Shown: positions 23,735-34,955 of the stretch, piece by piece
Layout: every line of letters begins with the position of its first letter
How positions within the stretch are numbered: the stretch's first letter is position 1
DNA from: Verrucomicrobiota bacterium
GTDB taxonomy: Bacteria; Verrucomicrobiota; Verrucomicrobiia; Chthoniobacterales; UBA6821
Direction: 5' to 3'
Assembly: GCA_037127835.1 (NCBI GenBank)
Contig: JBAXXS010000003.1
Coordinates: forward strand, 1 to 47,682
DNA: 47,682 nucleotides
The notes under the pieces: model-generated
Told to the model about the DNA's origin: nothing
The model's input: the letters and a program-made list of their open reading frames with translations, nothing else
Database searches by the model: none
Program-made: the position numbers and the translations under genes

Positions 23735-23808
23735 TGCAGCCATGAGGAGTCGAACCTCAAACCTTCTGATCCGTAGTCAGATGCTCTATCCAATTGAGCT
23801 ATGGCTGC
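23735..23808 (-). tRNA. tRNA-Arg (anticodon ACG); CCA not encoded
   Basis: Reverse complement GCAGCCATAGCTCAATTGGATAGAGCATCTGACTACGGATCAGAAGGTTTGAGGTTCGACTCCTCATGGCTGCA folds into a cloverleaf with anticodon loop CTACGGA and T-loop TTCGACT. Confidence 0.97.
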
Positions 23809-23900: not shown

Positions 23901-23909
23901 AACAACTCA

Positions 23910-24024
23910 ATCTTATCAAGAGTGACTGAGGGACTGGCCCGCTGATGTCACGGCAACCGCTGCGGAATTTTTCGTAGGCCCAGGTGCCAAATCCAGCTCC
24001 GAGCAATCGGGGAAAAGATGAGAT
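23910..24024 (+). ncRNA. SAM-I (S-box) riboswitch
   Basis: P1 atcttatc/gatgagat; hallmark segments CTTATCAAGAG, GAGGGACTGGCCC, GGCAACC, GGTGCCAAATCC, GAAAAGATGAG. Confidence 0.95.
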
Positions 24025-24107
24025 ACTTGGCAGAGCCGATGATCCACAGGGATTGAGGCACCAGGTCTCCTCGGCACTCTTGATTGGAAAACAACCGACC
24101 AAGACCT

Positions 24108-25364
24108 ATGTCCAAGAAACCCTTTTTCAGTAATCTGAAATGCCGTGAATGCGGCCGTCTCTACGAGAAAGAGGCGATCCATATCTGTGAATTCGACTTT
24201 GGCCCGCTGGAGGCCGCCTATGACTACGAGGCGATCCGCGCAGTGCTGACCCGGGAACTCATCGAGTCTCGCCCTCAGACGATGTGGCGCTATCGGGAGC
24301 TGCTTCCGATCGATGGCGAGCCGACCGTTGGCACCCAGGTGGGCTTTACCCCGCTCGTGAAGGCCGACCGTCTGGCCAAAGCTCTCGGCATTCGCGAAAT
24401 CTGGATCAAGAACGACTCCGTCAATTACCCGACTCTTTCCTTCAAGGATCGCGTGGTCTCCGTGGCACTCAGCCGTGCCCGCGAGCTCGGATTCGAGGTG
24501 GTCGCCTGCGCCTCCACGGGCAATCTGGCTAACTCGGTCGCTGCCAACGCTGCCAATGCCGGACTCAAGAGCTATGTGTTGATCCCCTCGAATCTCGAAC
24601 AGGGTAAGGTACTCGGTTCGCTAGTCTATGGAACCAACGTCATCGCGATCAAAGGCCCCTATGACCAGGTGAACCGCCTCTGCTCCGAGATCGCTGGCAA
24701 GTACGGGTGGGGTTTCGTGAACGTGAACCTCCGCCCTTACTACGCGGAGGGGTCCAAGACCATGGGCTTCGAGATCGCCGAGCAGCTTGGCTGGAAGCTT
24801 CCCCGCCACACGGTGGTCTGCATGGCCTCCGGATCGCTGCTCACTAAGATCCACAAGGCCTACAAGGAGTTTATCGATCTCGACATCGTCCCGAAGAGCG
24901 ATTTCACCATCCACGGGGCGCAGGCCTCCGGATGCTCCCCGATCAGCACCGCCTTCAAGGCCGGCTCGGAGATGGTGAAGCCCGTTCAGAATCCCGACAC
25001 GATCGCCAAGTCCCTCGCGATTGGAACGCCGGCCGACGGCTACTACGCGATCCGCAGCATGCGGGAGACAGGTGGAAGCTGTGAGGATTGCACCGATGAA
25101 GAGATCGTCGAGGGGATTAAGCTCCTGGCCGAGACCACCGGCATCTTTGCCGAGACGGCCGGCGGCGTCACTGTCGCCTGCGCCAGGAAACTCATCGAGT
25201 CCGGCAAAATCCCCAGGGATGAGAGCGCTGTCCTCTGCATCACCGGCCACGGCCTCAAGACCCAGGAAGCCATCGTCGGTAAGGTCGGAGAGCCTCGCGT
25301 CATCGGGGCCAGCCTGCGAGAGTTCGAAGCCCTGGTCGCCGACGAAGTCGCGGCAAAAAGCTAA
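24108..25364 (+). CDS. Threonine-synthase-like PLP enzyme (second ThrC paralogue; probable sulfur amino acid synthase)
   Basis: N-terminal CRECG zinc-ribbon-like motif, PTLSFKDR (PLP lysine), CASTGN, EGSKTMGFE, ITGHGLKT. Downstream of a SAM-I riboswitch, upstream of a sulfur carrier. Start moved to MSKKPF. Confidence 0.9.
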   Translation: MSKKPFFSNLKCRECGRLYEKEAIHICEFDFGPLEAAYDYEAIRAVLTRELIESRPQTMWRYRELLPIDGEPTVGTQVGFTPLVKADRLAKALGIREIWIKNDSVNYPTLSFKDRVVSVALSRARELGFEVVACASTGNLANSVAANAANAGLKSYVLIPSNLEQGKVLGSLVYGTNVIAIKGPYDQVNRLCSEIAGKYGWGFVNVNLRPYYAEGSKTMGFEIAEQLGWKLPRHTVVCMASGSLLTKIHKAYKEFIDLDIVPKSDFTIHGAQASGCSPISTAFKAGSEMVKPVQNPDTIAKSLAIGTPADGYYAIRSMRETGGSCEDCTDEEIVEGIKLLAETTGIFAETAGGVTVACARKLIESGKIPRDESAVLCITGHGLKTQEAIVGKVGEPRVIGASLREFEALVADEVAAKS

Positions 25365-25370
25365 CCTTCA

Positions 25371-25412
25371 TTACCCATTACCTATCACCCAAACCCTATT
25401 ACCTAATTCCCA
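25371..25412. repeat. Degenerate 7-bp tandem repeat
   Basis: ttaccca-ttaccta-tcaccca-aacccta-ttaccta-attccca, running into the ATG of the sulfur carrier gene. Confidence 0.8.
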
Positions 25413-25684
25413 TGCCCATCGTCCGAATCCCCACCCCACTCCGCAAGCTGACCAATAATCTTGAGGAGGTCACGGTCTCCGGTGCTACGCTCGCCGTCGT
25501 TCTGGACGAACTCAATGCCGCCTATCCCGGTCTGAGCGAGCGCATCGTTGATGAAAACGGCATTATCCGCCGTTTCGTTAATATCTTTGTGAACGACGAG
25601 GATGTCCGCTTCCTTCAGGAAAAAGAGACCCCGATCCAAGAAGCCGATATCGTCTCTATTGTTCCAGCTATCGCTGGAGGCTAG
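25412..25684 (+). CDS. MoaD/ThiS/CysO-family ubiquitin-like sulfur carrier
   Basis: 90 aa; VRIPTPLR, RRFVNIFVNDEDVRFL, and a C-terminal PAIAGG di-glycine end. Confidence 0.95.
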   Translation: MPIVRIPTPLRKLTNNLEEVTVSGATLAVVLDELNAAYPGLSERIVDENGIIRRFVNIFVNDEDVRFLQEKETPIQEADIVSIVPAIAGG

Positions 25685-25747
25685 TCCGATAGTCCCCTGC
25701 TGATAGTCCTCTTGCCTTCGCGACTCTAACCTCCGATCTTTTCTATT

Positions 25748-25990
25748 ATGGAAACGACCCGCCTCTGGCTTATGTATCCGGCTAAGCTCATCACACGCCC
25801 GCTTGTCTACGAACTGGGACACAAATTCTCCGTCACGACGAATGTCCGCCAGGCAAGCGTTACCAACGAGATCGGCCTTGTCTGTCTCGAGCTCATCGGC
25901 GAGCGCGGCGAGATCAAGCGTTCTATCGCATGGCTCGAGGAGCTTGGAGTGAAGGTCGAACCGGTCGAGATCAACACGATCGAGGGTTGA
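25748..25990 (+). CDS. Stand-alone NIL-domain protein (ACT-like)
   Basis: 80 aa; LMYPAKLITRPLVYEL...VTTNVRQASV...GLVCLEL.G....I..LEELGVKVE fits the NIL domain pattern found at the MetN C-terminus. Confidence 0.85.
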   Translation: METTRLWLMYPAKLITRPLVYELGHKFSVTTNVRQASVTNEIGLVCLELIGERGEIKRSIAWLEELGVKVEPVEINTIEG

Positions 25991-26017: not shown

Positions 26018-26470
26018 ATGAAAATTTCTCTCGGTAGCGATCACGCAGGATTTGAATACAAGCAGGCCTTGGCCGAGATGCTTCGTATGCAGGGGCATGA
26101 TGTCATCGATTGCGGCACCCACTCCGCCGACTCCACCGACTACCCCCTCTGGTGCATTCCCGCAGCTGAGAAAGTGGCTAGCGGTGAAGCCGAGAAGGGC
26201 ATCGTCGTCGGCGGATCCGGCAATGGCGAGGCTATCGCGGCCAACAAGGTGAAGGGGATCCGTTGTGCCATCGCCTGGAGCGATGAGACCGCCAAGCTGG
26301 CCAGCCAGCACAACAATGCTAATGTCCTCTCGATCGGCGAGCGCATGGTCTCGCTCGAGACCGCTAAGCGCCTGGTCGATCTCTGGCTCTCCACCCCCTT
26401 CGAGGGTGGGCGCCATCTCAAGCGTATTGAAGAACTAGCACTCTACGAGTCGGGTAAACCGATGCAGTAG
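26018..26470 (+). CDS. rpiB: Ribose-5-phosphate isomerase B
   Basis: GSDHAG, DYP, GGSGNGEAIAANKVKGIR, HNNANVL, FEGGRH. Confidence 0.95.
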   Translation: MKISLGSDHAGFEYKQALAEMLRMQGHDVIDCGTHSADSTDYPLWCIPAAEKVASGEAEKGIVVGGSGNGEAIAANKVKGIRCAIAWSDETAKLASQHNNANVLSIGERMVSLETAKRLVDLWLSTPFEGGRHLKRIEELALYESGKPMQ

Positions 26471-26545: not shown

Positions 26546-27769
26546 CTATGAAATAGAAACGATCAATGCAGTTGTATTGTCTTTTCCGGAAGACTCTATG
26601 GCTTCAGCTACGAGATGCTCTGCGGGAGTTCGGTTCTTTGGACATTCTTTCAAACCCTCTGCGATTCGTTGATCCGAGAGTCCGTCGGTCACCCCGTCCG
26701 AGCAGATCAGAAAGCGGTCGCCCGGACGGCAGGCGATCTCGCCGATCTGCGGGTTCACGAATTGATTGCCAGCCCCAAGCGCCTTTTGCAGGCGGTTCTT
26801 TGCCGGGTGCATCCGCGCCTCCAGTTCACTGATCTGTCCGGTGCGCTTTAGCCATCCGACATGAGTGTCGTCGTTGGTAAGTTGGAGGATTTTGCCATCC
26901 TTGGGCATGTAATAGATGCGGGTGTCACCAATATGGGCGAAGTGCATCGTGTCGCCGGAAAACCAGCAGAGGCTGAGGGTGGCTCCCATGCCGCAACACT
27001 CCTCATAGCTGTCGCCCAGATATTGAAGGGCCTTGTTAATTTCCGAGAATAGCGCTTCGAAGGCTCCTTCATAGCCGATCGGCTTGCCGCTGGCTCGTTG
27101 CCGGATCAGCGGGGGGAGCATGCGGGTGATTTTATCAACAACGATCCGGCTGGCGAATTCACCCGCATTCGCGCCACCCATTCCATCGCTGACGGCAAAC
27201 AGCAGATCGTCCTCTGCATGGGATGCAGCGCCGACCTTTCCCAGATGACGCACCTCCGCCGCATCGATCGCCAGTCCGAGAAAAGCATCCTCGTTATTGG
27301 ACCTTATGCGTCCGCTGTGGGAGTACCCTGACCATGTGAGAGAAAGCTTTTGGGATGGTGGCACCTCCATTGGCGTCGAGATCGAAACGCCGTCCTTTTT
27401 CAGGATTGTCGCAAATTCAAAATCGATCAGGCAGAAGCGCCCGTCCTGCTGGCGATAGGTGACGTTGCGGAGGTCGGCATCGTCGTGTCGGACGCCGTAG
27501 CGTTCGAGTTCCGCGAAGAGTTCCTTGCAACGCTTCGGGTCAAGCTGGTCGACGCGTGAACCGCAGTTCGTCGTGACAAGAAGGAGTTTCTCCGGTTCCG
27601 CCGAGATCACCCGGGGGACAAAATCGCATCCGGCTTTTTCAAGATACCGCAGGACTCGGACTTCGTTGGTGAAGCGTTCCTTGGCCTTCGGTCCATGGAA
27701 CGCCTTGCGCACGCTCCCATCGAAGCAGACCTGGACGGTGGCGCGCTGGGTGTCCTTGACTGTGAGCAT
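26546..27769 (-). CDS. Fusion of a minimal protein-kinase-like domain and a PP2C/PPM Ser/Thr phosphatase
   Basis: N-terminal ~125 aa: VRK, ERFTNE, HDDADLRN (HxDxxxxN), LIDFE. C-terminal: RSNNEDAF, VSDGMGG, HIGDTR, CSDGVTD, GKDNTT. Confidence 0.85.
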   Translation of the reverse strand: MLTVKDTQRATVQVCFDGSVRKAFHGPKAKERFTNEVRVLRYLEKAGCDFVPRVISAEPEKLLLVTTNCGSRVDQLDPKRCKELFAELERYGVRHDDADLRNVTYRQQDGRFCLIDFEFATILKKDGVSISTPMEVPPSQKLSLTWSGYSHSGRIRSNNEDAFLGLAIDAAEVRHLGKVGAASHAEDDLLFAVSDGMGGANAGEFASRIVVDKITRMLPPLIRQRASGKPIGYEGAFEALFSEINKALQYLGDSYEECCGMGATLSLCWFSGDTMHFAHIGDTRIYYMPKDGKILQLTNDDTHVGWLKRTGQISELEARMHPAKNRLQKALGAGNQFVNPQIGEIACRPGDRFLICSDGVTDGLSDQRIAEGLKECPKNRTPAEHLVAEAIESSGKDNTTALIVSIS

Positions 27770-31200: not shown

Positions 31201-32427
31201 CTATGCCGCGTCTAATCCGAAGGCCGTGTGGGCTAGCTTGGCTGCCTCGGCTATTTTTTCTTCATCGAGAATGACCGCAATCTTGATCTCCGAGGTGGAG
31301 ATCATCTGGATGTTGATGCCACCCTTGGCGAGGGCTTCGAAGAGCTTGGCCGCAACGCCCGAATGGGTGCGCATTCCGATACCGACGACGCTGAGCTTGG
31401 CGATGCCATCCTGCTTGCTGACTTTGCCGGCTCCGATCTCTGCGGCGACGCGGTCGACGAGATCACCGATCTTCTCGAGTTCGTCGCGGTTCATCGTGAA
31501 GGAAATATCGGTCGAACCCGCAGCAGAGACATTCTGGACGATGACGTCGATCATGACATGGGCATCAGCTAGCGCGGTGAAGAGCCTGGCTGCGCATCCC
31601 GGCTTATCGGGGACTTGGGTGACAGTGACCTTGGCCTGATTACGCTCGACGCTGACGCCGCGCACGACGACCTGTTCCATTCCTTCGGATTCTTCTTTCA
31701 CGGTTGTTCCTGGTTTGTTGTTGAAGCTGCTGCGGACCTCAAAGGTCACGCCGAATTTCTTAGCGAATTCCACCGAGCGCGACTGCATGACCTTGGAGCC
31801 GCTGCTCGCCATCTCGAGCATCTCGTCATAGGAGATGGCTTCGATCTTTTGGGCTGTCGGGACGATGCGGGGATCACAGGTGTAGACGCCGTCCACATCG
31901 GTGAAGATCTGGCAGGCATCAGCCTCCACAGCGGAGGCAAGCGCTATAGCAGTGAGGTCGGAGCCGCCGCGGCCGAGCGTGGTGATGGCCCCTTCGCTGG
32001 TCTCTCCCTGGAATCCAGCCACGATCACAATCGCCCCCTCATCCAGGTGCTTCTTGATCTGGTCCGGGGTGACATTACTGATCTTGGCCTTGGTATGGAC
32101 GCCGTTGGTGACGATGCCGGCCTGGGCGCCTGTGAGAGAGACAGCCTTACCTCCCAAACTCTGGATCGCCATGGCGGTAAGAGCCATCGTGGTCTGCTCA
32201 CCCGTGGAGAGTAGAACATCCATTTCGCGCTCAGTTGGCTTGGAGGGATTGGAGGAGACTTCTTTGGCCAGCTTGATCAGGGAATCGGTGACCCCCGACA
32301 TCGCGGAAACAACAGCGACGACGGAATTCCCCTCGCGCTGGGTTTCCAGCAGTCGACGGGCGACATTCATGATGCGCTCGGGATTACCGACCGAAGTGCC
32401 GCCGTATTTCTGGACGATGAGGGGCAT
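31201..32427 (-). CDS. lysC: Aspartate kinase
   Basis: VQKYGGTSVG, VVSAM, TTLGRGGSD, TDVDGVYTCDPR, two C-terminal ACT domains, STSEIKI. Confidence 0.97.
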   Translation of the reverse strand: MPLIVQKYGGTSVGNPERIMNVARRLLETQREGNSVVAVVSAMSGVTDSLIKLAKEVSSNPSKPTEREMDVLLSTGEQTTMALTAMAIQSLGGKAVSLTGAQAGIVTNGVHTKAKISNVTPDQIKKHLDEGAIVIVAGFQGETSEGAITTLGRGGSDLTAIALASAVEADACQIFTDVDGVYTCDPRIVPTAQKIEAISYDEMLEMASSGSKVMQSRSVEFAKKFGVTFEVRSSFNNKPGTTVKEESEGMEQVVVRGVSVERNQAKVTVTQVPDKPGCAARLFTALADAHVMIDVIVQNVSAAGSTDISFTMNRDELEKIGDLVDRVAAEIGAGKVSKQDGIAKLSVVGIGMRTHSGVAAKLFEALAKGGINIQMISTSEIKIAVILDEEKIAEAAKLAHTAFGLDAA

Positions 32428-32434
32428 GAGGAAG

Positions 32435-32520
32435 AGACTGTTAGCGGTTTAGGCTTTTAGGTTGTTGGGTCTGAGACTGCATCTGAATTCGGATGCCGAT
32501 AGTCCAATAGCCCAAAAGTC
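32435..32520. repeat. Intergenic repeat related to the 27778-27910 element
   Basis: ctgttagcggtttaggct (32438-32455) is the exact reverse complement of agcctaaaccgctaacag (27890-27907). A weaker opposite arm gatagtccaatagcccaaaagtc lies near 32499-32520. Confidence 0.7.
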
Positions 32521-32536
32521 CGGGTGGTCTGCATGA

Positions 32537-33655
32537 TCAGTTGTCTAGCTTGGCCAGGGCCTCACGGACGGCTGATGCTGTGGCCTCGGTCTCGATTGGT
32601 GCGGTAACAGCATGCTTCGCCGTATCAGGATCCTTAAGCCCGTGACCTGTGACCGTGAGTACCACCTTGGCTCCGGGCTGGATCTGGCGGAATGGGCAGC
32701 ATTCGCACTGGGTGGTCTTTCCGCTGCGGTTGAAGCATTTGAAAAGCGCGGCCACGGGTGCGGCGCTGGCTGGCTCAACAAAAATTCCTTCGTTGGAGGC
32801 GAGCCACTTCTGGGCGGCCAGGATCTCGGAGTCCTCGACGATCTCAAAACAACCACCCGATTCGGAGACGGCATTGATGGCCCCATCCCAACTGGCCGGA
32901 CGTCCGATCCGAATGGCCGTGGCTACCGTCTCCGGATTATCCATCGGAGCGCCGTGATAGAGCGGTGAAGCACCGGCCGCCTGAACGCCGAGCATCCTTG
33001 GAAGCTTGTGGCTACGGCCTAGATCCTTGAACTCTTTGTATCCCTTCCAGTAGGCGGTGATGTTGCCGGCATTCCCGACAGGCAGGATGTGGATGTCGGG
33101 TGCGTTGCCTAGCTCCTCGATGATCTCGAAGGCGGCGGTCTTCTGGCCCTCGATCCGGTAAGGGTTGATCGAATTGACGATGGCGAAGTCGCCCGTCTCA
33201 CCCAGTTCGCGCACGAGACGCAGGGCGTCGTCAAAGTTGCCACGGATAGCAACGACGGTTGCACCGTAGATATAGGCCTGGACCATCTTGCCTCCCGCGA
33301 TGCGACCGGCTGGAAGCAATACGGCACACTTCATCCCGGCGCGCGCCGCATAGGCGGCCGCGGCGGCGGAGGTATTCCCGGTGGAGGCACAGAGGACGGT
33401 GTGGGCTCCCTCCTCGGCGGCCTTGGAGATGGCCATGGTCATACCTCGGTCCTTGAAGGAGCCTGTCGGATTCAGCCCCTCGTACTTGACATAGACCTCA
33501 CCGCCGGTGATCTCACTCAGCTTGGGCGAATGAATCAGGGGCGTGGAACCCTCGCCCAGAGAGATGACGGGCGTGGCATCGCTGACTGACAGGAACTCGC
33601 GGTAGCGCTCGATCACGCCGCAATCATTGAAGGTCTTGTTCATCGGGACGGGCAT
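32537..33655 (-). CDS. thrC: Threonine synthase (canonical copy)
   Basis: [57 protein letters not shown]; located between hom and lysC. Confidence 0.96.
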
Positions 33656-33662
33656 CAGGAAA

Positions 33663-34955
33663 TCAAGAAAAAGTCTCCACGTTGAAGAGTACAGGCTCTC
33701 CCTTCACGCAGCCGAGGGTGGTGATCTTCGCAAGGGCGGCGCACATGGCTCCATAGGCGGCCTCGTGGATCATCAGCACGAGAGGAGTCTCAACCCCGGC
33801 AATCAACTCAGGCTGGACAACCGAAGAGATGCCGATGCCTGCCTCACCGAGGACCCCGGCGATAAGAGCCAAGACACCCGGTTTGTCATCCACCGAGAGG
33901 CGCAGGTAGTAGGAGCCGACGATCTCGGGTGACGATCGGCTGCTTCCATAGAGCGCATGGGGAGCGAATCCGAAAGTGCCTCTGGGAGCATCGAGCACAT
34001 GGGCCGCCTCCACGAGATCGCCGATCACCGAGGTGGATGTCGGGCCGCGTCCCGCACCGCGTCCGTAGAACAGACTGTCGCCGACGAGATCGCCGCGGAC
34101 GGCAACGGCATTGAAGACCCCGTTCACCGAGGCAAGGACATTCCCGAGAGGAATGAGCGTTGGGGCCACGCCGACCTCGACTTTGCCTTGATTCTCACGA
34201 ATCGAGCCGAGCAGCTTGATGCAGTATCCTAGGCTCTTGGCGAAATGAATGTCTGCCGCGCTCACGCGGTCTATCCCCTCGACGCGGATCGTGGCGGGAT
34301 CGACCCAGAATCCGTAGGCGAGGGCGGCCAGGATGATTGCTTTGTGTCCGGCATCCCATCCGTTGATATCGAGCGTGGGGTCGGCCTCCGCATAGCCCAG
34401 CTTTACCGCCTCAGCAAGGGCCTCGGGGTAGTCGAGCCCGGCCTCCTGCATGCGGGTCAGGATATAGTTGCTCGTGCCGTTGAGGATGCCGTGAACTGAC
34501 TCGATGCGGTTGCCGACGAAGGCATCGCGGAGCGACTGGATGATCGGAATGCCACCGGCCACCGCCGCCTCGAAGAAAACGGGGATCTTGCACTCGCTAG
34601 CCAGGGCAAAAATCTCAGCTCCGCGCTCTGCCAGAAGGGCCTTGTTGCCTGTGACGACGATGCGTCCCGAGCGGATCGCCGCCATCGTCAGGTCGAAGGC
34701 CTCCGTCGTCCCTCCGATCAGTTCGACGATGATCTTGATTTCAGGATCCTCCAGCAGGTCCTGCCACCGGCTGTAGAAGAGCGAAGCTGGTGCCGAGACA
34801 TCGCGCTGTTTCTGCAGATCGCGCACGACGATCCGACGCACGTCAAATGCGTACCCGGAACGCTCCGTGATCAGTTCACGGTGGTGTTCCAGATTCTCAT
34901 AGACCCCGGCACCCACGGTGCCGAAGCCGGCCAATCCGATGCCGATCGTCTTCAT
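33663..34955 (-). CDS. hom: Homoserine dehydrogenase with C-terminal ACT domain
   Basis: [57 protein letters not shown]. Confidence 0.97.

What the first reader, a model, noticed from the sequence alone, without database searches (positions are those of the whole stretch)
23910..25990. SAM-riboswitch operon: ThrC paralogue, ubiquitin-like sulfur carrier and stand-alone NIL protein, a probable carrier-dependent homocysteine/methionine route with its own feedback subunit
Seen: a clear SAM-I riboswitch directly precedes a ThrC-like PLP enzyme, a MoaD/CysO-like protein ending in Gly-Gly, and an 80-aa NIL protein. A separate canonical thrC sits in the hom-thrC-lysC operon about 7 kb away. Established: SAM-I switches control methionine/sulfur genes, not threonine genes; thiocarboxylated carriers donate sulfur to PLP enzymes (Mycobacterium CysM/CysO, Wolinella HcyS); the NIL domain is the methionine-sensing domain of MetN. 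Inference: the paralogue transfers sulfur from the carrier onto O-phosphohomoserine to make homocysteine, bypassing MetA/MetX, and the NIL protein may be an amino-acid-sensing regulatory partner. I recall a ThrC-like enzyme plus carrier route reported in Streptomyces but cannot verify it here, so the NIL component and this lineage are the likelier novelty. The carrier-activating MoeB/MoeZ-type enzyme and any JAB peptidase are not in the window.
Basis: partly seen in the sequence, partly recalled or inferred. Interest (0 to 1): 0.82.

Follow-up and report, generated by a model that had tools for sequence, protein, structure and literature searches.

The report
Riboswitch-controlled homocysteine operon with NIL partner
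A SAM-sensing RNA switch controls three genes that most likely make the methionine precursor homocysteine by a recently described sulfur-carrier route, and the third gene, a tiny NIL protein, is a conserved but undescribed companion of that route.

Summary
A SAM-I riboswitch (Rfam 79.3 bits) precedes a ThrC paralogue, a ThiS/MoaD carrier ending in Gly-Gly and an 80-aa NIL protein. A canonical hom-thrC-lysC operon lies 7 kb away.

The core matches the MetM/MetO O-phosphohomoserine route to homocysteine (Hasebe 2024, Streptomyces), so it is already known. In this 93.6%-complete freshwater Verrucomicrobiota genome it is the only recognisable homocysteine route. MetA, MetX, MetB/MetY-type enzymes and DUF39 were not found. 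ThrB, a MoeZ-like activator and MetH are present.

The new part is the NIL protein.
- It follows metM-metO in 9 of 12 Verrucomicrobiota genomes that carry metM.
- It directly follows a MetM-like gene in 72 of 80 mostly Chloroflexota loci, in a different gene order.
- It occurs fused behind the carrier's Gly-Gly in 24 protein clusters.
- Its best-conserved residues align with the methionine-binding Asn295 region of the MetN C2 domain.

It is not obligatory, and NIL paralogues occur in unrelated contexts. I read it as a ligand-sensing accessory subunit; that is inference. No JAB hydrolase was found in 10 of the 11 related genomes, nor in the window's own genome. I found no paper describing NIL with MetM.

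The parts
23910..24024 (+). SAM-I riboswitch aptamer
   Evidence: Rfam RF00162, 79.3 bits (gathering 44.4), model 1-108. The same family lies upstream of metM in 8 of 11 related Verrucomicrobiota loci. It is the only match in the genome to an nhmmer profile built from these 9 aptamers.
24066..24087 (+). Leader segment complementary to the 5' strand of aptamer helix P1; a candidate switching element of the expression platform (inferred)
   Evidence: The minimum-free-energy fold of 23905-24125 pairs this segment with the 5' part of the aptamer. A similarly placed segment complementary to P1 is visible in the leaders of relatives (alignment A6). No intrinsic terminator was found. The mechanism was not tested.
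24108..25364 (+). metM-like gene: ThrC-fold PLP enzyme, predicted O-phosphohomoserine- and carrier-thiocarboxylate-dependent homocysteine synthase (418 aa from the ATG; the longest ORF starts at TTG 24084)
   Evidence: PALP and TIGR00260 matches. It falls in a clade with 100/99 support together with 39 MetM-like proteins, apart from the canonical ThrC clade. The PLP lysine motif SFKDR and three N-terminal Cys are invariant in 70 homologues.
25412..25684 (+). metO-like gene: ThiS/MoaD-fold sulfur carrier, 90 aa, with C-terminal Gly-Gly directly before the stop codon
   Evidence: Pfam ThiS 59.8 bits. G89 and G90 are invariant in 32 homologues.
25748..25990 (+). Stand-alone NIL protein, 80 aa, conserved accessory of the metM locus
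   Evidence: Pfam NIL. AlphaFold2 model with pLDDT 93; best Foldseek match is the MetN C2 domain, TM 0.84. Context is conserved. It is the only NIL match in the genome.
31201..34955 (-). Context only: hom, canonical thrC and aspartate kinase operon, which supplies homoserine and makes threonine
   Evidence: NCBIfam: aspartate kinase 566.7 bits, thrC 331.2 bits, homoserine dehydrogenase 471.5 bits.

Best explanation
This is a SAM-repressed metM-metO-NIL operon.

Proposed pathway:
1. Homoserine, made by hom in the window, is phosphorylated by ThrB (encoded elsewhere in the genome).
2. The carrier MetO is adenylated and thiocarboxylated at its C-terminal Gly-Gly by the ThiF+rhodanese MoeZ-like enzyme (encoded elsewhere).
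3. The ThrC paralogue MetM uses PLP to replace the phosphate of O-phosphohomoserine with the carrier's sulfur, giving homocysteine.
4. MetH methylates homocysteine to methionine.

When SAM is plentiful, the riboswitch shuts the operon off. Because there is no terminator, this most likely happens at translation initiation or through Rho.

The 80-aa NIL protein is a real, conserved accessory of this route. I propose that it forms a dimer like the MetN C2 domain, binds methionine or a close relative, and tunes MetM or carrier use at the protein level.

What is shown:
- the elements themselves
- the gene content of the genome
- the conserved linkage and the fusions
- the homology to the MetN C2 domain

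What is inferred:
- the enzyme chemistry (by analogy with Streptomyces MetM/MetO)
- the mode of riboswitch action
- ligand binding by NIL
- the target of NIL

My odds: core pathway about 0.85; NIL functionally tied to the pathway about 0.75; NIL as a ligand-sensing regulator about 0.45.
For: CORE PATHWAY
- Riboswitch plus MetM-like enzyme plus a carrier ending in Gly-Gly.
- The S. albulus metM also has an upstream SAM riboswitch (passages of PMC12172450).
- GapMind 2026 lists MetO, MoeZ, MetM and Mec as a route with experimental evidence (Table 2 of PMC13759103).
- Not found in the own genome (93.6% complete): MetX, MetA/HTS, any real Cys_Met_Meta_PP enzyme (best 28.5 bits over 119 of 381 model positions), DUF39/HcyBio, MetE.
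- Found in the own genome: ThrB 203.8 bits; a 396-aa ThiF+rhodanese protein, 528 bits on the MoeZ model; MetH and a homocysteine methyltransferase/MTHFR protein; a separate canonical ThrC.
- Tree of 54 rows: 40 of 40 MetM-like rows form one clade (100/99). The window ThrC groups with 6 canonical Chloroflexota ThrCs (100/100).
- The cysteate synthase model scores 69.8 bits against a cut-off of 324.9.

NIL LINKAGE
- Verrucomicrobiota sample of 301 genomes: MetM-like (66-100% identity) in 12, NIL in 9. All 9 NIL genomes are among the 12, and NIL was found in none of the 289 genomes without a MetM-like gene.
- The order metM-metO-NIL is seen in the window and in 8 of 11 relatives.
- In 80 loci found through a NIL profile (nearly all Chloroflexota, one Nitrospirota), a MetM-like ORF (43-60% identical) ends within 300 nt of NIL on the same strand in 72. 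Here the order is metM-NIL, followed by metO in 20.
- Fusions: 19 of 35 longer relatives have the ThiS+NIL architecture. 24 of 25 ThiS+NIL proteins inspected keep Gly-Gly at the junction. Two Prok-JAB+NIL fusions exist.
- The protein is under constraint: 71-72% identity to orthologues whose synonymous sites are saturated.

NIL AS A SENSOR
- A profile of 22 NIL proteins matches the MetN C2 domain at E 8e-11. Family positions P18, F27, N32 and A36 align to MetN P281, F290, N295 and A299.
- N295A reduces L-methionine binding to undetectable levels, and A299 lies on the dimer-interface strand (passages of PMC6233128).
- The model superposes on the C2 domain at 1.0 A rmsd.
- NIL domains also occur fused to unrelated enzymes, as expected of a regulatory module.
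- The two 0.9-Mb genomes that keep metM-metO have lost both the riboswitch and NIL.
Against: - No biochemical data exist for this locus.
- I could not read the primary MetM/MetO paper, nor obtain the S. albulus sequences. Identity to the characterised enzyme is therefore untested.
- NCBIfam's threonine synthase model still scores the enzyme above its cut-off.
- GapMind lists a JAB hydrolase (Mec) as a step. None was found in this genome, nor over the cut-off in 10 of 11 related metM genomes.
- NIL is dispensable. It is absent from 3 of 12 Verrucomicrobiota metM-metO loci.
- In a Chloroflexota sample of 251 genomes, NIL lies within 3 kb of the MetM-like gene in only 34 of 93 genomes that have one.
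- In 25 further Chloroflexota genomes, NIL proteins 44-57% identical to the query sit in unrelated contexts: oxidoreductase fusions, sulfatase, methylmalonyl-CoA mutase. Presence and absence counts therefore mix paralogues.
- Nothing shows that NIL binds methionine, or which protein it touches.
- The AlphaFold2 model of a natural MetO-NIL fusion gives no confident domain packing (pTM 0.52).
- Related genomes are not independent samples: the 9 NIL genomes fall in only 6 genera.
Confidence: 0.6

Rival explanations
1. NIL is not a sensor but a stoichiometric helper of the sulfur relay. It could be an adaptor or chaperone that presents MetO or its thiocarboxylate to MetM or MoeZ, or that holds the amino-acid substrate or product. 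This would be comparable to the unexplained NIL domain of the NIL/ferredoxin protein needed in the DUF39 homocysteine route.
For: - MetO-NIL fusions would give a 1:1 ratio: 19 of 35 longer relatives have this architecture, and 24 of 25 inspected keep Gly-Gly at the junction.
- JAB-NIL fusions exist.
- NIL also follows CysM-like PALP enzymes next to ThiF in loci L043 and L065.
- A NIL/ferredoxin protein is genetically required for homocysteine synthesis in Desulfovibrio, with its function unknown (section 8 of PMC5764234).
Against: - The conserved residues are those of the methionine-binding, dimer-forming face of MetN C2.
- The route evidently runs without NIL in 3 of 12 Verrucomicrobiota genomes, including two genome-reduced ones.
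- NIL has no Cys conserved at 90% or more that could carry sulfur.
- NIL domains occur on enzymes unrelated to sulfur.
Confidence: 0.22
2. NIL is a general small ligand-binding protein that merely sits beside metM and has no role in the route.
For: - NIL paralogues lie in many other contexts.
- NIL is missing from many metM loci.
- rpiB, an unrelated gene, follows NIL only 27 nt downstream in the window.
Against: - Linkage persists across two phyla despite a changed gene order: 72 of 80 loci, and 9 of 9 NIL-positive Verrucomicrobiota genomes.
- In-frame fusions with the carrier and with JAB exist.
- The other neighbours of the triad (rpiB, SOUL, PP2C) are not conserved in the 11 relatives' loci.
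Confidence: 0.08
3. The ThrC paralogue is an ordinary or specialised threonine or cysteate synthase, and the carrier serves molybdopterin or thiamine synthesis. Homocysteine would then come from genes in the unassembled 6% of the genome.
For: - TIGR00260 thrC scores 278 bits, above its cut-off.
- The carrier also resembles MoaD/SAMP1 models, though below their cut-offs.
- The genome is incomplete (93.63%).
Against: - A SAM riboswitch upstream indicates methionine-related control, by general knowledge of SAM-I regulons.
- A better-scoring canonical thrC is present.
- The enzyme's clade is separate from canonical ThrC, and 6 of 6 Chloroflexota genomes carry both kinds.
- The cysteate synthase model is far below its cut-off.
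- Several independent homocysteine routes would all have to fall in the missing 6%.
- Closed relatives' genomes carry the same metM-metO arrangement.
Confidence: 0.05

Closest known systems
MetM/MetO homocysteine route of Streptomyces albulus (Hasebe et al. 2024, Appl Environ Microbiol 90:e0124724). Seen only through citing papers PMC13759103, PMC12172450 and bioRxiv 10.64898/2026.09.15.751699.
   Same: - ThrC-like enzyme next to a small sulfur carrier.
- SAM riboswitch upstream.
- O-phosphohomoserine as the implied substrate.
- A MoeZ-type activator encoded elsewhere.
   Different: - Different phylum (Verrucomicrobiota).
- A third conserved gene (NIL) that the citing papers do not list.
- No JAB/Mec hydrolase found.
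- Sequence identity to the Streptomyces proteins could not be measured here.
CysM/CysO/MoeZ/Mec cysteine route of Mycobacterium tuberculosis (recalled, not looked up)
   Same: A PLP enzyme of the PALP fold takes sulfur from a ThiS-like protein thiocarboxylate onto an O-phospho amino acid.
   Different: - It makes cysteine from O-phosphoserine.
- It needs the JAB hydrolase Mec.
- No NIL is known there. In two Chloroflexota loci (L043, L065), however, NIL follows a CysM-like enzyme.
HcyS/HcyF/HcyD with MetY in Wolinella succinogenes (recalled, not looked up)
   Same: - Homocysteine sulfur comes from a protein thiocarboxylate.
- The carrier tail is removed by a JAB-type peptidase. This is a model for the MetO forms with tails and for the MetO-NIL fusions.
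   Different: - It uses an O-acetylhomoserine sulfhydrylase of another fold.
- It has no ThrC-like enzyme and no NIL.
C2 (NIL) domain of the MetN ATPase of the E. coli MetNI methionine importer (PDB 3DHW, 3TUI, 3TUZ, 6CVL; PMC6233128)
   Same: - Same fold (TM 0.84).
- Same family (E 8e-11).
- The Asn that contacts bound L-methionine and the interface Ala are conserved.
   Different: - Here it is a free 80-aa protein with no ABC ATPase.
- No MetN is present in the genome.
- A family-specific, nearly invariant Arg (R34) replaces MetN I297.
NIL/ferredoxin protein of the DUF39 homocysteine route (Methanosarcina MA1822, Desulfovibrio DvMF_0262; PMC5764234)
   Same: A NIL domain tied to homocysteine synthesis, with unknown molecular role.
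   Different: - No ferredoxin domain here.
- No DUF39 in the genome.
- Homoserine is not an intermediate in that route.
Stand-alone ACT-type regulatory subunits such as IlvH or GlyXS (analogy only; GlyXS is mentioned in PMC13759103)
   Same: A small ferredoxin-like ligand-binding protein encoded beside the enzyme it would regulate.
   Different: A different family. Regulation by NIL is not shown.

Membership tests
SAM-I riboswitch (Rfam RF00162) | Covariance-model score above the curated gathering score over the full aptamer | tested here: met
   79.3 bits against 44.4, model positions 1-108.
SAM-I riboswitch (Rfam RF00162) | An expression platform that switches gene expression on SAM binding | tested here: inconclusive
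   No terminator-like site was found. A segment complementary to P1 lies upstream of the start codon. No experiment was done.
MetM (carrier-thiocarboxylate-dependent homocysteine synthase) | ThrC-fold PLP enzyme with the Schiff-base lysine | tested here: met
   PALP 232.8 bits. K113 in the SFKDR motif is invariant in 70 homologues.
MetM | Paralogue distinct from the organism's threonine synthase | tested here: met
   37% identity to the window ThrC. The two fall in separate clades with 100/99 and 100/100 support.
MetM | Encoded beside a MetO-type carrier | tested here: met
   47 nt apart in the window. MetO follows MetM in 11 of 11 related Verrucomicrobiota loci.
MetM | Close sequence relationship to the characterised S. 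albulus enzyme (UniProt A0A059WBP2) | not testable with these tools
   The sequence could not be fetched and the paper is not held. Citing papers give 51.6% identity for a cyanobacterial homologue and 33% for B. subtilis ThrC.
MetM | Forms homocysteine from O-phosphohomoserine and MetO thiocarboxylate | not testable with these tools
   This needs an enzyme assay.
MetO / ThiS-MoaD sulfur carriers | Beta-grasp ThiS-family fold with a free C-terminal Gly-Gly | tested here: met
   Pfam ThiS 59.8 bits. The protein ends in GG before the stop codon. GG is invariant in 32 homologues.
MetO / ThiS-MoaD sulfur carriers | A cognate E1-like adenylyltransferase with a rhodanese domain (MoeZ) in the genome | tested here: met
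   One ThiF-family gene, 396 aa. NF005902 (MoeZ) scores 528.4 bits, below its cut-off of 647. NF006444 (MoeB) scores 469.8 bits, above its cut-off of 449.
MetM/MetO pathway as listed in GapMind 2026 | A JAB-type hydrolase (Mec) | tested here: not met
   No PF14464 match in the genome. No tblastn match below E 0.02 with the JAB parts of two JAB-NIL fusions. Only 1 of 11 related metM genomes has a match over the cut-off. The genome is 93.6% complete.
NIL domain (Pfam PF09383) | Profile match above the cut-off, and the ferredoxin-like fold of MetN C2 | tested here: met
   39.6 bits against 24. Model pLDDT 93.1 with beta-alpha-beta-beta-alpha-beta order. Foldseek match to 3tui_D: TM 0.84, rmsd 1.0 A.
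NIL domain as methionine sensor (MetN C2) | Conserved Asn equivalent to MetN N295 and interface Ala equivalent to A299 | tested here: met
   N32 and A36 are conserved at 90% or more in 89 sequences. They align to N295 and A299. The N295A structure 6CVL shows Ala in that column, and the residue's role is taken from PMC6233128.
NIL domain as methionine sensor (MetN C2) | Binds L-methionine | not testable with these tools
   This needs ITC or thermal shift measurements.
MetN ABC ATPase | ABC ATPase domain N-terminal to NIL | tested here: not met
   The protein is 80 aa of NIL only. TIGR02314 scores 17.1 bits against a cut-off of 499.7.
NIL/ferredoxin of the DUF39 route | 4Fe-4S ferredoxin domain and a DUF39 partner | tested here: not met
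   No ferredoxin domain. No PF01837 match in the genome.
Cysteate synthase | Score above the curated cut-off of TIGR03844 | tested here: not met
   69.8 bits against 324.9.

The most novel reading that the evidence does not exclude
The free NIL protein is a methionine- or homocysteine-sensing allosteric subunit for PALP-fold sulfhydrylases that take sulfur from protein thiocarboxylates (MetM, and CysM-like enzymes in some lineages). This would add protein-level feedback to the riboswitch.

In the widespread MetO-NIL fusions it would also act as a removable C-terminal cap on the carrier's Gly-Gly. It would be released by a JAB peptidase, as ubiquitin is released from its fusion precursors, so that carrier maturation and regulator supply are coupled.

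The same ligand-binding role would then explain the unexplained NIL domain of the DUF39 homocysteine route. NIL would be the common sensor module of three methionine systems: uptake, the DUF39 route and the MetM route.
Probability: 0.3. Interest if true: 0.7.

Novelty: new variant of a known kind. Interest (0 to 1): 0.55.

Why it matters
- **Pathway prediction.** The MetM/MetO route was described only in 2024, in Streptomyces. Here it appears as the apparently sole homocysteine route of a freshwater Verrucomicrobiota genome, and MetM-like genes are common in Chloroflexota (93 of 251 genomes sampled). Tools that score these organisms as methionine auxotrophs would be wrong.
- **An uncharacterised family.** The NIL companion is large: 2988 clusters at 90% identity were found among 2992 candidates, and 530 clusters at 50% identity. 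Public annotations call it 'hypothetical', 'methionine transport ATPase subunit' or 'aspartate semialdehyde sulfurtransferase ferredoxin', and none of these fits an 80-aa NIL-only protein. A defined role would correct these names and might explain the NIL domain of the DUF39 route.
- **An open mechanistic question.** No JAB hydrolase was found in 10 of the 11 related Verrucomicrobiota metM genomes, nor in the window's own genome. This raises the question of how, or whether, a carrier-homocysteine adduct is resolved in these organisms.

Tried and rejected
**Complex prediction, MetM (alignment A3) with NIL (alignment A4).** It was finally run. Verdict: no answer, score 0.16 against a mark of 0.32. 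I do not count this either way.

**AlphaFold2 model of a natural MetO-NIL fusion** (P0324, alignment A7).
- Both domains are confident.
- The junction residues 89-94 have pLDDT under 50.
- pTM is 0.52, so no fixed domain packing can be read from it.

**RNA evidence.** No RNA holder was listed for the locus.

**PALP-NIL 'fusions'** (P0258, P0333, P0343). P0333 matches MetM up to residue 366 and then runs into Arg-rich sequence before the NIL domain. P0258 has a similar Arg/Gly-rich linker. I take them as probable frameshifts between adjacent genes, not real fusions. P0144 looks chimeric.

**'NIL replaces the JAB hydrolase'.** Rejected, because the two 0.9-Mb genomes have neither.

**Other attempts**
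- SAM riboswitch in Chloroflexota loci: none in 12 of the 80 loci scanned.
- dN/dS for NIL: synonymous sites are saturated and no ratio could be computed for 3 of 4 pairs.
- First NIL alignment (A1): too divergent for the search for related loci. I replaced it with the narrower A2, which biased the 80 loci towards Chloroflexota.
- Cluster names gave almost no taxonomy.
- One literature search was wasted because 'ThiS' matched the word 'this'.
- The primary Hasebe paper is not held.
- The GapMind supplementary spreadsheets and archives hold no MetM, MetO, NIL or Mec term. Its S1 text is a PDF that cannot be read here and may discuss the route.
- I could not reach any Streptomyces or cyanobacterial genome, so whether the characterised system has a NIL gene nearby is open.


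Full report
**1. What is there**

On the + strand the window carries the following elements.
- A full-length SAM-I aptamer at 23910-24024 (RF00162, 79.3 bits against a gathering score of 44.4).
- A ThrC-family PLP enzyme at 24108-25364. The longest ORF starts at TTG 24084, but homologues align from the ATG.
- A 90-aa ThiS/MoaD-fold protein at 25412-25684 that ends in Gly-Gly directly before the stop codon.
- An 80-aa protein at 25748-25990 that is nothing but a NIL domain.

The gaps between the genes are 47 and 63 nt. No terminator-like site lies on this strand between 23600 and 26700. A tRNA gene on the opposite strand (23735-23808) bounds the unit upstream. The canonical threonine synthase lies 7 kb away, between homoserine dehydrogenase and aspartate kinase, and is 37% identical to the paralogue.

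**2. The core is a known route**

Hasebe et al. (2024) described MetM, a ThrC-like homocysteine synthase, and MetO, its sulfur carrier, in Streptomyces albulus. I could not read that paper. What I know of it comes from three citing papers.
- GapMind 2026 (Table 2 of PMC13759103) lists MetO, the MetO-sulfur ligase MoeZ, the hydrolase Mec and MetM as steps with experimental evidence.
- PMC12172450 (passages) states that metM of S. albulus has an upstream SAM riboswitch, and that a cyanobacterial homologue is 51.6% identical to MetM.
- A 2026 preprint (passage) gives 33% identity for B. subtilis ThrC.

The window's enzyme fits this picture. In a tree of 54 rows, all 40 MetM-like proteins form one clade (100/99). 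These were 10 from Verrucomicrobiota and 30 from Chloroflexota, every second one of the 60 in alignment A3. The window's canonical ThrC groups with six canonical Chloroflexota ThrCs (100/100). Six of six Chloroflexota genomes tested carry both kinds. The cysteate synthase model scores far below its cut-off.

**3. Genome context**

The assembly has 1.95 Mb in 150 contigs and is 93.63% complete. Names attached to close NIL homologues place it in Verrucomicrobiota. The locus is held mostly by lake and freshwater metagenomes.

| Not found | Found |
|---|---|
| MetX | Homoserine kinase |
| MetA | One ThiF+rhodanese enzyme of MoeZ/MoeB type |
| A true Cys/Met-PLP enzyme (best 28.5 bits, partial) | MetH and a homocysteine methyltransferase/MTHFR fusion |
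| DUF39 | |
| MetE | |
| A JAB hydrolase | |

The MetM/MetO pair is therefore the only recognisable way to homocysteine, with the usual caveat for an incomplete genome. The metM aptamer is the only match in the genome to a profile of nine related aptamers.

**4. The NIL protein is a conserved companion**

*Verrucomicrobiota.* In an even sample of 301 genomes, a MetM-like gene (66-100% identity; all other hits are 33-37%) occurs in 12, and the NIL protein in 9. All 9 are among the 12. In the 11 relatives' loci, MetO follows MetM in 11 and NIL follows MetO in 8. A SAM-I riboswitch precedes metM in 8 of the 11. The flanking genes of the window (rpiB, SOUL, PP2C) are not found in those loci.

*Chloroflexota.* Searching public genomes with a narrower NIL profile gave at least 599 matches. 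The best 80 loci are nearly all Chloroflexota, with one Nitrospirota.
- In 72 of the 80, a MetM-like ORF ends within 300 nt upstream of NIL on the same strand.
- One locus has the MetM-like ORF 3.4 kb away.
- Seven have none, and in two of these NIL sits within 200 nt of the end of the contig.
- The order there is metM-NIL, followed by metO in 20 loci. Linkage has therefore survived a rearrangement.
- Neighbours include CysK-like enzymes, serine acetyltransferase-like proteins, a Cys/Met-PLP enzyme, ThiF, cysteine desulfurase and NifU.
- No SAM riboswitch was found in the 12 loci scanned.

*Fusions.* Among 35 longer relatives found with the NIL profile, 19 combine ThiS and NIL. Of the 25 ThiS+NIL proteins I inspected, 24 keep Gly-Gly at the junction, followed by a 5-25 residue linker. 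One has the order NIL-ThiS. Two of these fusions are 70-73% identical to the window's NIL. Two proteins fuse a prokaryotic JAB domain to NIL.

**5. Limits of the linkage**

NIL is not obligatory. Three Verrucomicrobiota genomes have metM-metO without it.
- Two are 0.9-Mb genomes, which also lack the riboswitch.
- The third has a carrier with a 7-residue tail after Gly-Gly.

In a sample of 251 Chloroflexota genomes the counts are as follows.

| Category | All 251 genomes | Without the 3 unpublished genomes (248) |
|---|---|---|
| MetM-like gene | 93 | 90 |
| Strong NIL match | 65 | 64 |
| Both | 59 | 58 |
| NIL only | 6 | 6 |
| MetM only | 34 | 32 |
| Neither | 152 | 152 |
| NIL within 3 kb of metM | 34 | 33 |

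The three genomes flagged as unpublished are G344, G533 and G479.

The non-adjacent NILs are paralogues in other settings:
- fused to GFO/IDH/MocA oxidoreductases;
- beside sulfatases;
- after a serine acetyltransferase-like gene;
- near methylmalonyl-CoA mutase.

Related genomes are not independent, so I make no statistical claim.

**6. What NIL may do**

A profile of 22 diverse stand-alone NILs matches the C2 domain of the E. coli methionine importer ATPase MetN at E 8e-11. The family's best-conserved positions (P18, F27, N32, A36) fall on MetN P281, F290, N295 and A299. The column assignment is confirmed by the N295A structure 6CVL, which shows Ala in that column. According to PMC6233128 (passages):
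- L-methionine binds across the C2 dimer interface and hydrogen-bonds N295;
- N295A reduces binding to undetectable levels;
- A299 lies on the strand whose register shifts on binding.

The AlphaFold2 model (pLDDT 93.1) has the beta-alpha-beta-beta-alpha-beta order and superposes on C2 with TM 0.84 and 1.0 A rmsd.

The following observations fit a small ligand-sensing module, analogous to free ACT subunits, better than a catalytic part:
- NIL occurs on unrelated enzymes.
- Tandem NIL-NIL proteins exist.
- The genome-reduced lineage lost NIL together with the riboswitch.

This remains inference. The rival reading, that NIL is a stoichiometric helper of the sulfur relay, draws on the 1:1 fusions and on the still unexplained NIL/ferredoxin protein required in the DUF39 route (PMC5764234, section 8).

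**7. The JAB question**

Of the 11 related Verrucomicrobiota genomes with metM, only one has a Prok-JAB match over the cut-off. That genome is the one whose carrier has a tail. In Chloroflexota, 16 of 22 carriers in alignment A5 have 1-6 extra residues after Gly-Gly, and 5 of 6 genomes tested have a JAB over the cut-off. This suggests that JAB is needed mainly to expose Gly-Gly, and that the Verrucomicrobiota route runs without the Mec step. That conclusion is inference. The MetO-NIL fusions would then need such a peptidase.

**8. Riboswitch action**

No intrinsic terminator follows the aptamer. A segment at 24066-24087 is complementary to the 5' strand of P1 and pairs with it in the minimum-energy fold. 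Relatives carry a similarly placed complementary segment just upstream of a purine-rich stretch and the start codon. I favour translational or Rho-dependent control, but did not test it.

**9. Novelty**

The route is already known, and the lineage is a new host. The NIL companion, the MetO-NIL fusions and the apparent lack of JAB are not in any paper I could search.
- 'NIL domain' occurs in 6 held papers (3 works), none about MetM.
- No held paper combines 'NIL domain' with 'sulfur carrier'.
- GapMind's route lists no NIL.

The primary paper and the GapMind S1 text were not readable, so a mention there cannot be excluded.

**10. Verdict**

This is a new variant of a known kind, with interest 0.55.

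Noticed in passing
window 26018-26470 (+): An rpiB-type ribose-5-phosphate isomerase gene starts 27 nt after NIL on the same strand, with no terminator-like site between them. It may be read through from the SAM-controlled operon. It is not next to the triad in the 11 relatives' loci.
   Followed up: partly
window 23735-23808 (-): A tRNA gene lies about 100 nt upstream of the riboswitch on the opposite strand (Rfam tRNA, 69.4 bits).
   Followed up: no
window 26546-27769 (-): A 407-aa protein with a C-terminal PP2C phosphatase domain and weak kinase-like (APH/Kdo) matches at the N-terminus.
   Followed up: no
L017 1429-2451 and 2355-3923 (G000 contig C36): MetH is read as two overlapping ORFs that cover model positions 7-336 and 337-827. 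This could be a frameshift, an assembly error or a real split.
   Followed up: no
L107, L108 (genomes G114, G090, 0.9 Mb each): Two strongly reduced Verrucomicrobiota genomes keep metM-metO but lack NIL, the SAM riboswitch and any JAB match.
   Followed up: partly
L109 2185-2481 (genome G290): This MetO has a 7-residue tail after Gly-Gly. G290 is the only one of the 11 relatives with a clear Prok-JAB gene (85.9 bits), and it lacks NIL.
   Followed up: partly
L110 2462-3733, L114 2931-4184, L115 529-3282: In Chloroflexota, NIL domains are fused to the C-terminus of GFO/IDH/MocA-type oxidoreductases next to glycosyltransferases. Open frames of 421-451 aa around the NIL match recur in about a dozen genomes.
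   Followed up: partly
L043 2105-7402; L065 1421-7481: Here NIL follows a CysK/CysM-like PALP enzyme rather than MetM. In L043 that enzyme is fused to TusA and sits beside Rrf2, ThiF, a sulfite-reductase-like protein and Thi4. This hints that NIL may accompany carrier-dependent cysteine synthases too.
   Followed up: partly
P0202, P0224: Two proteins have a prokaryotic JAB domain followed by a NIL domain (237 and 249 aa).
   Followed up: no
tree: Verrucomicrobiota MetM proteins form one clade (100/100) nested among Chloroflexota MetMs. The join has weak support (91/57). Gene transfer between the phyla is possible but was not tested.
   Followed up: no
G149, G101, G185 (L128-L130): A further clade of about 420-aa ThrC-like proteins in other Verrucomicrobiota. 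They are 33-37% identical to MetM over the full length, including the N-terminal Cys-rich part, and are separate from both MetM and canonical ThrC.
   Followed up: no
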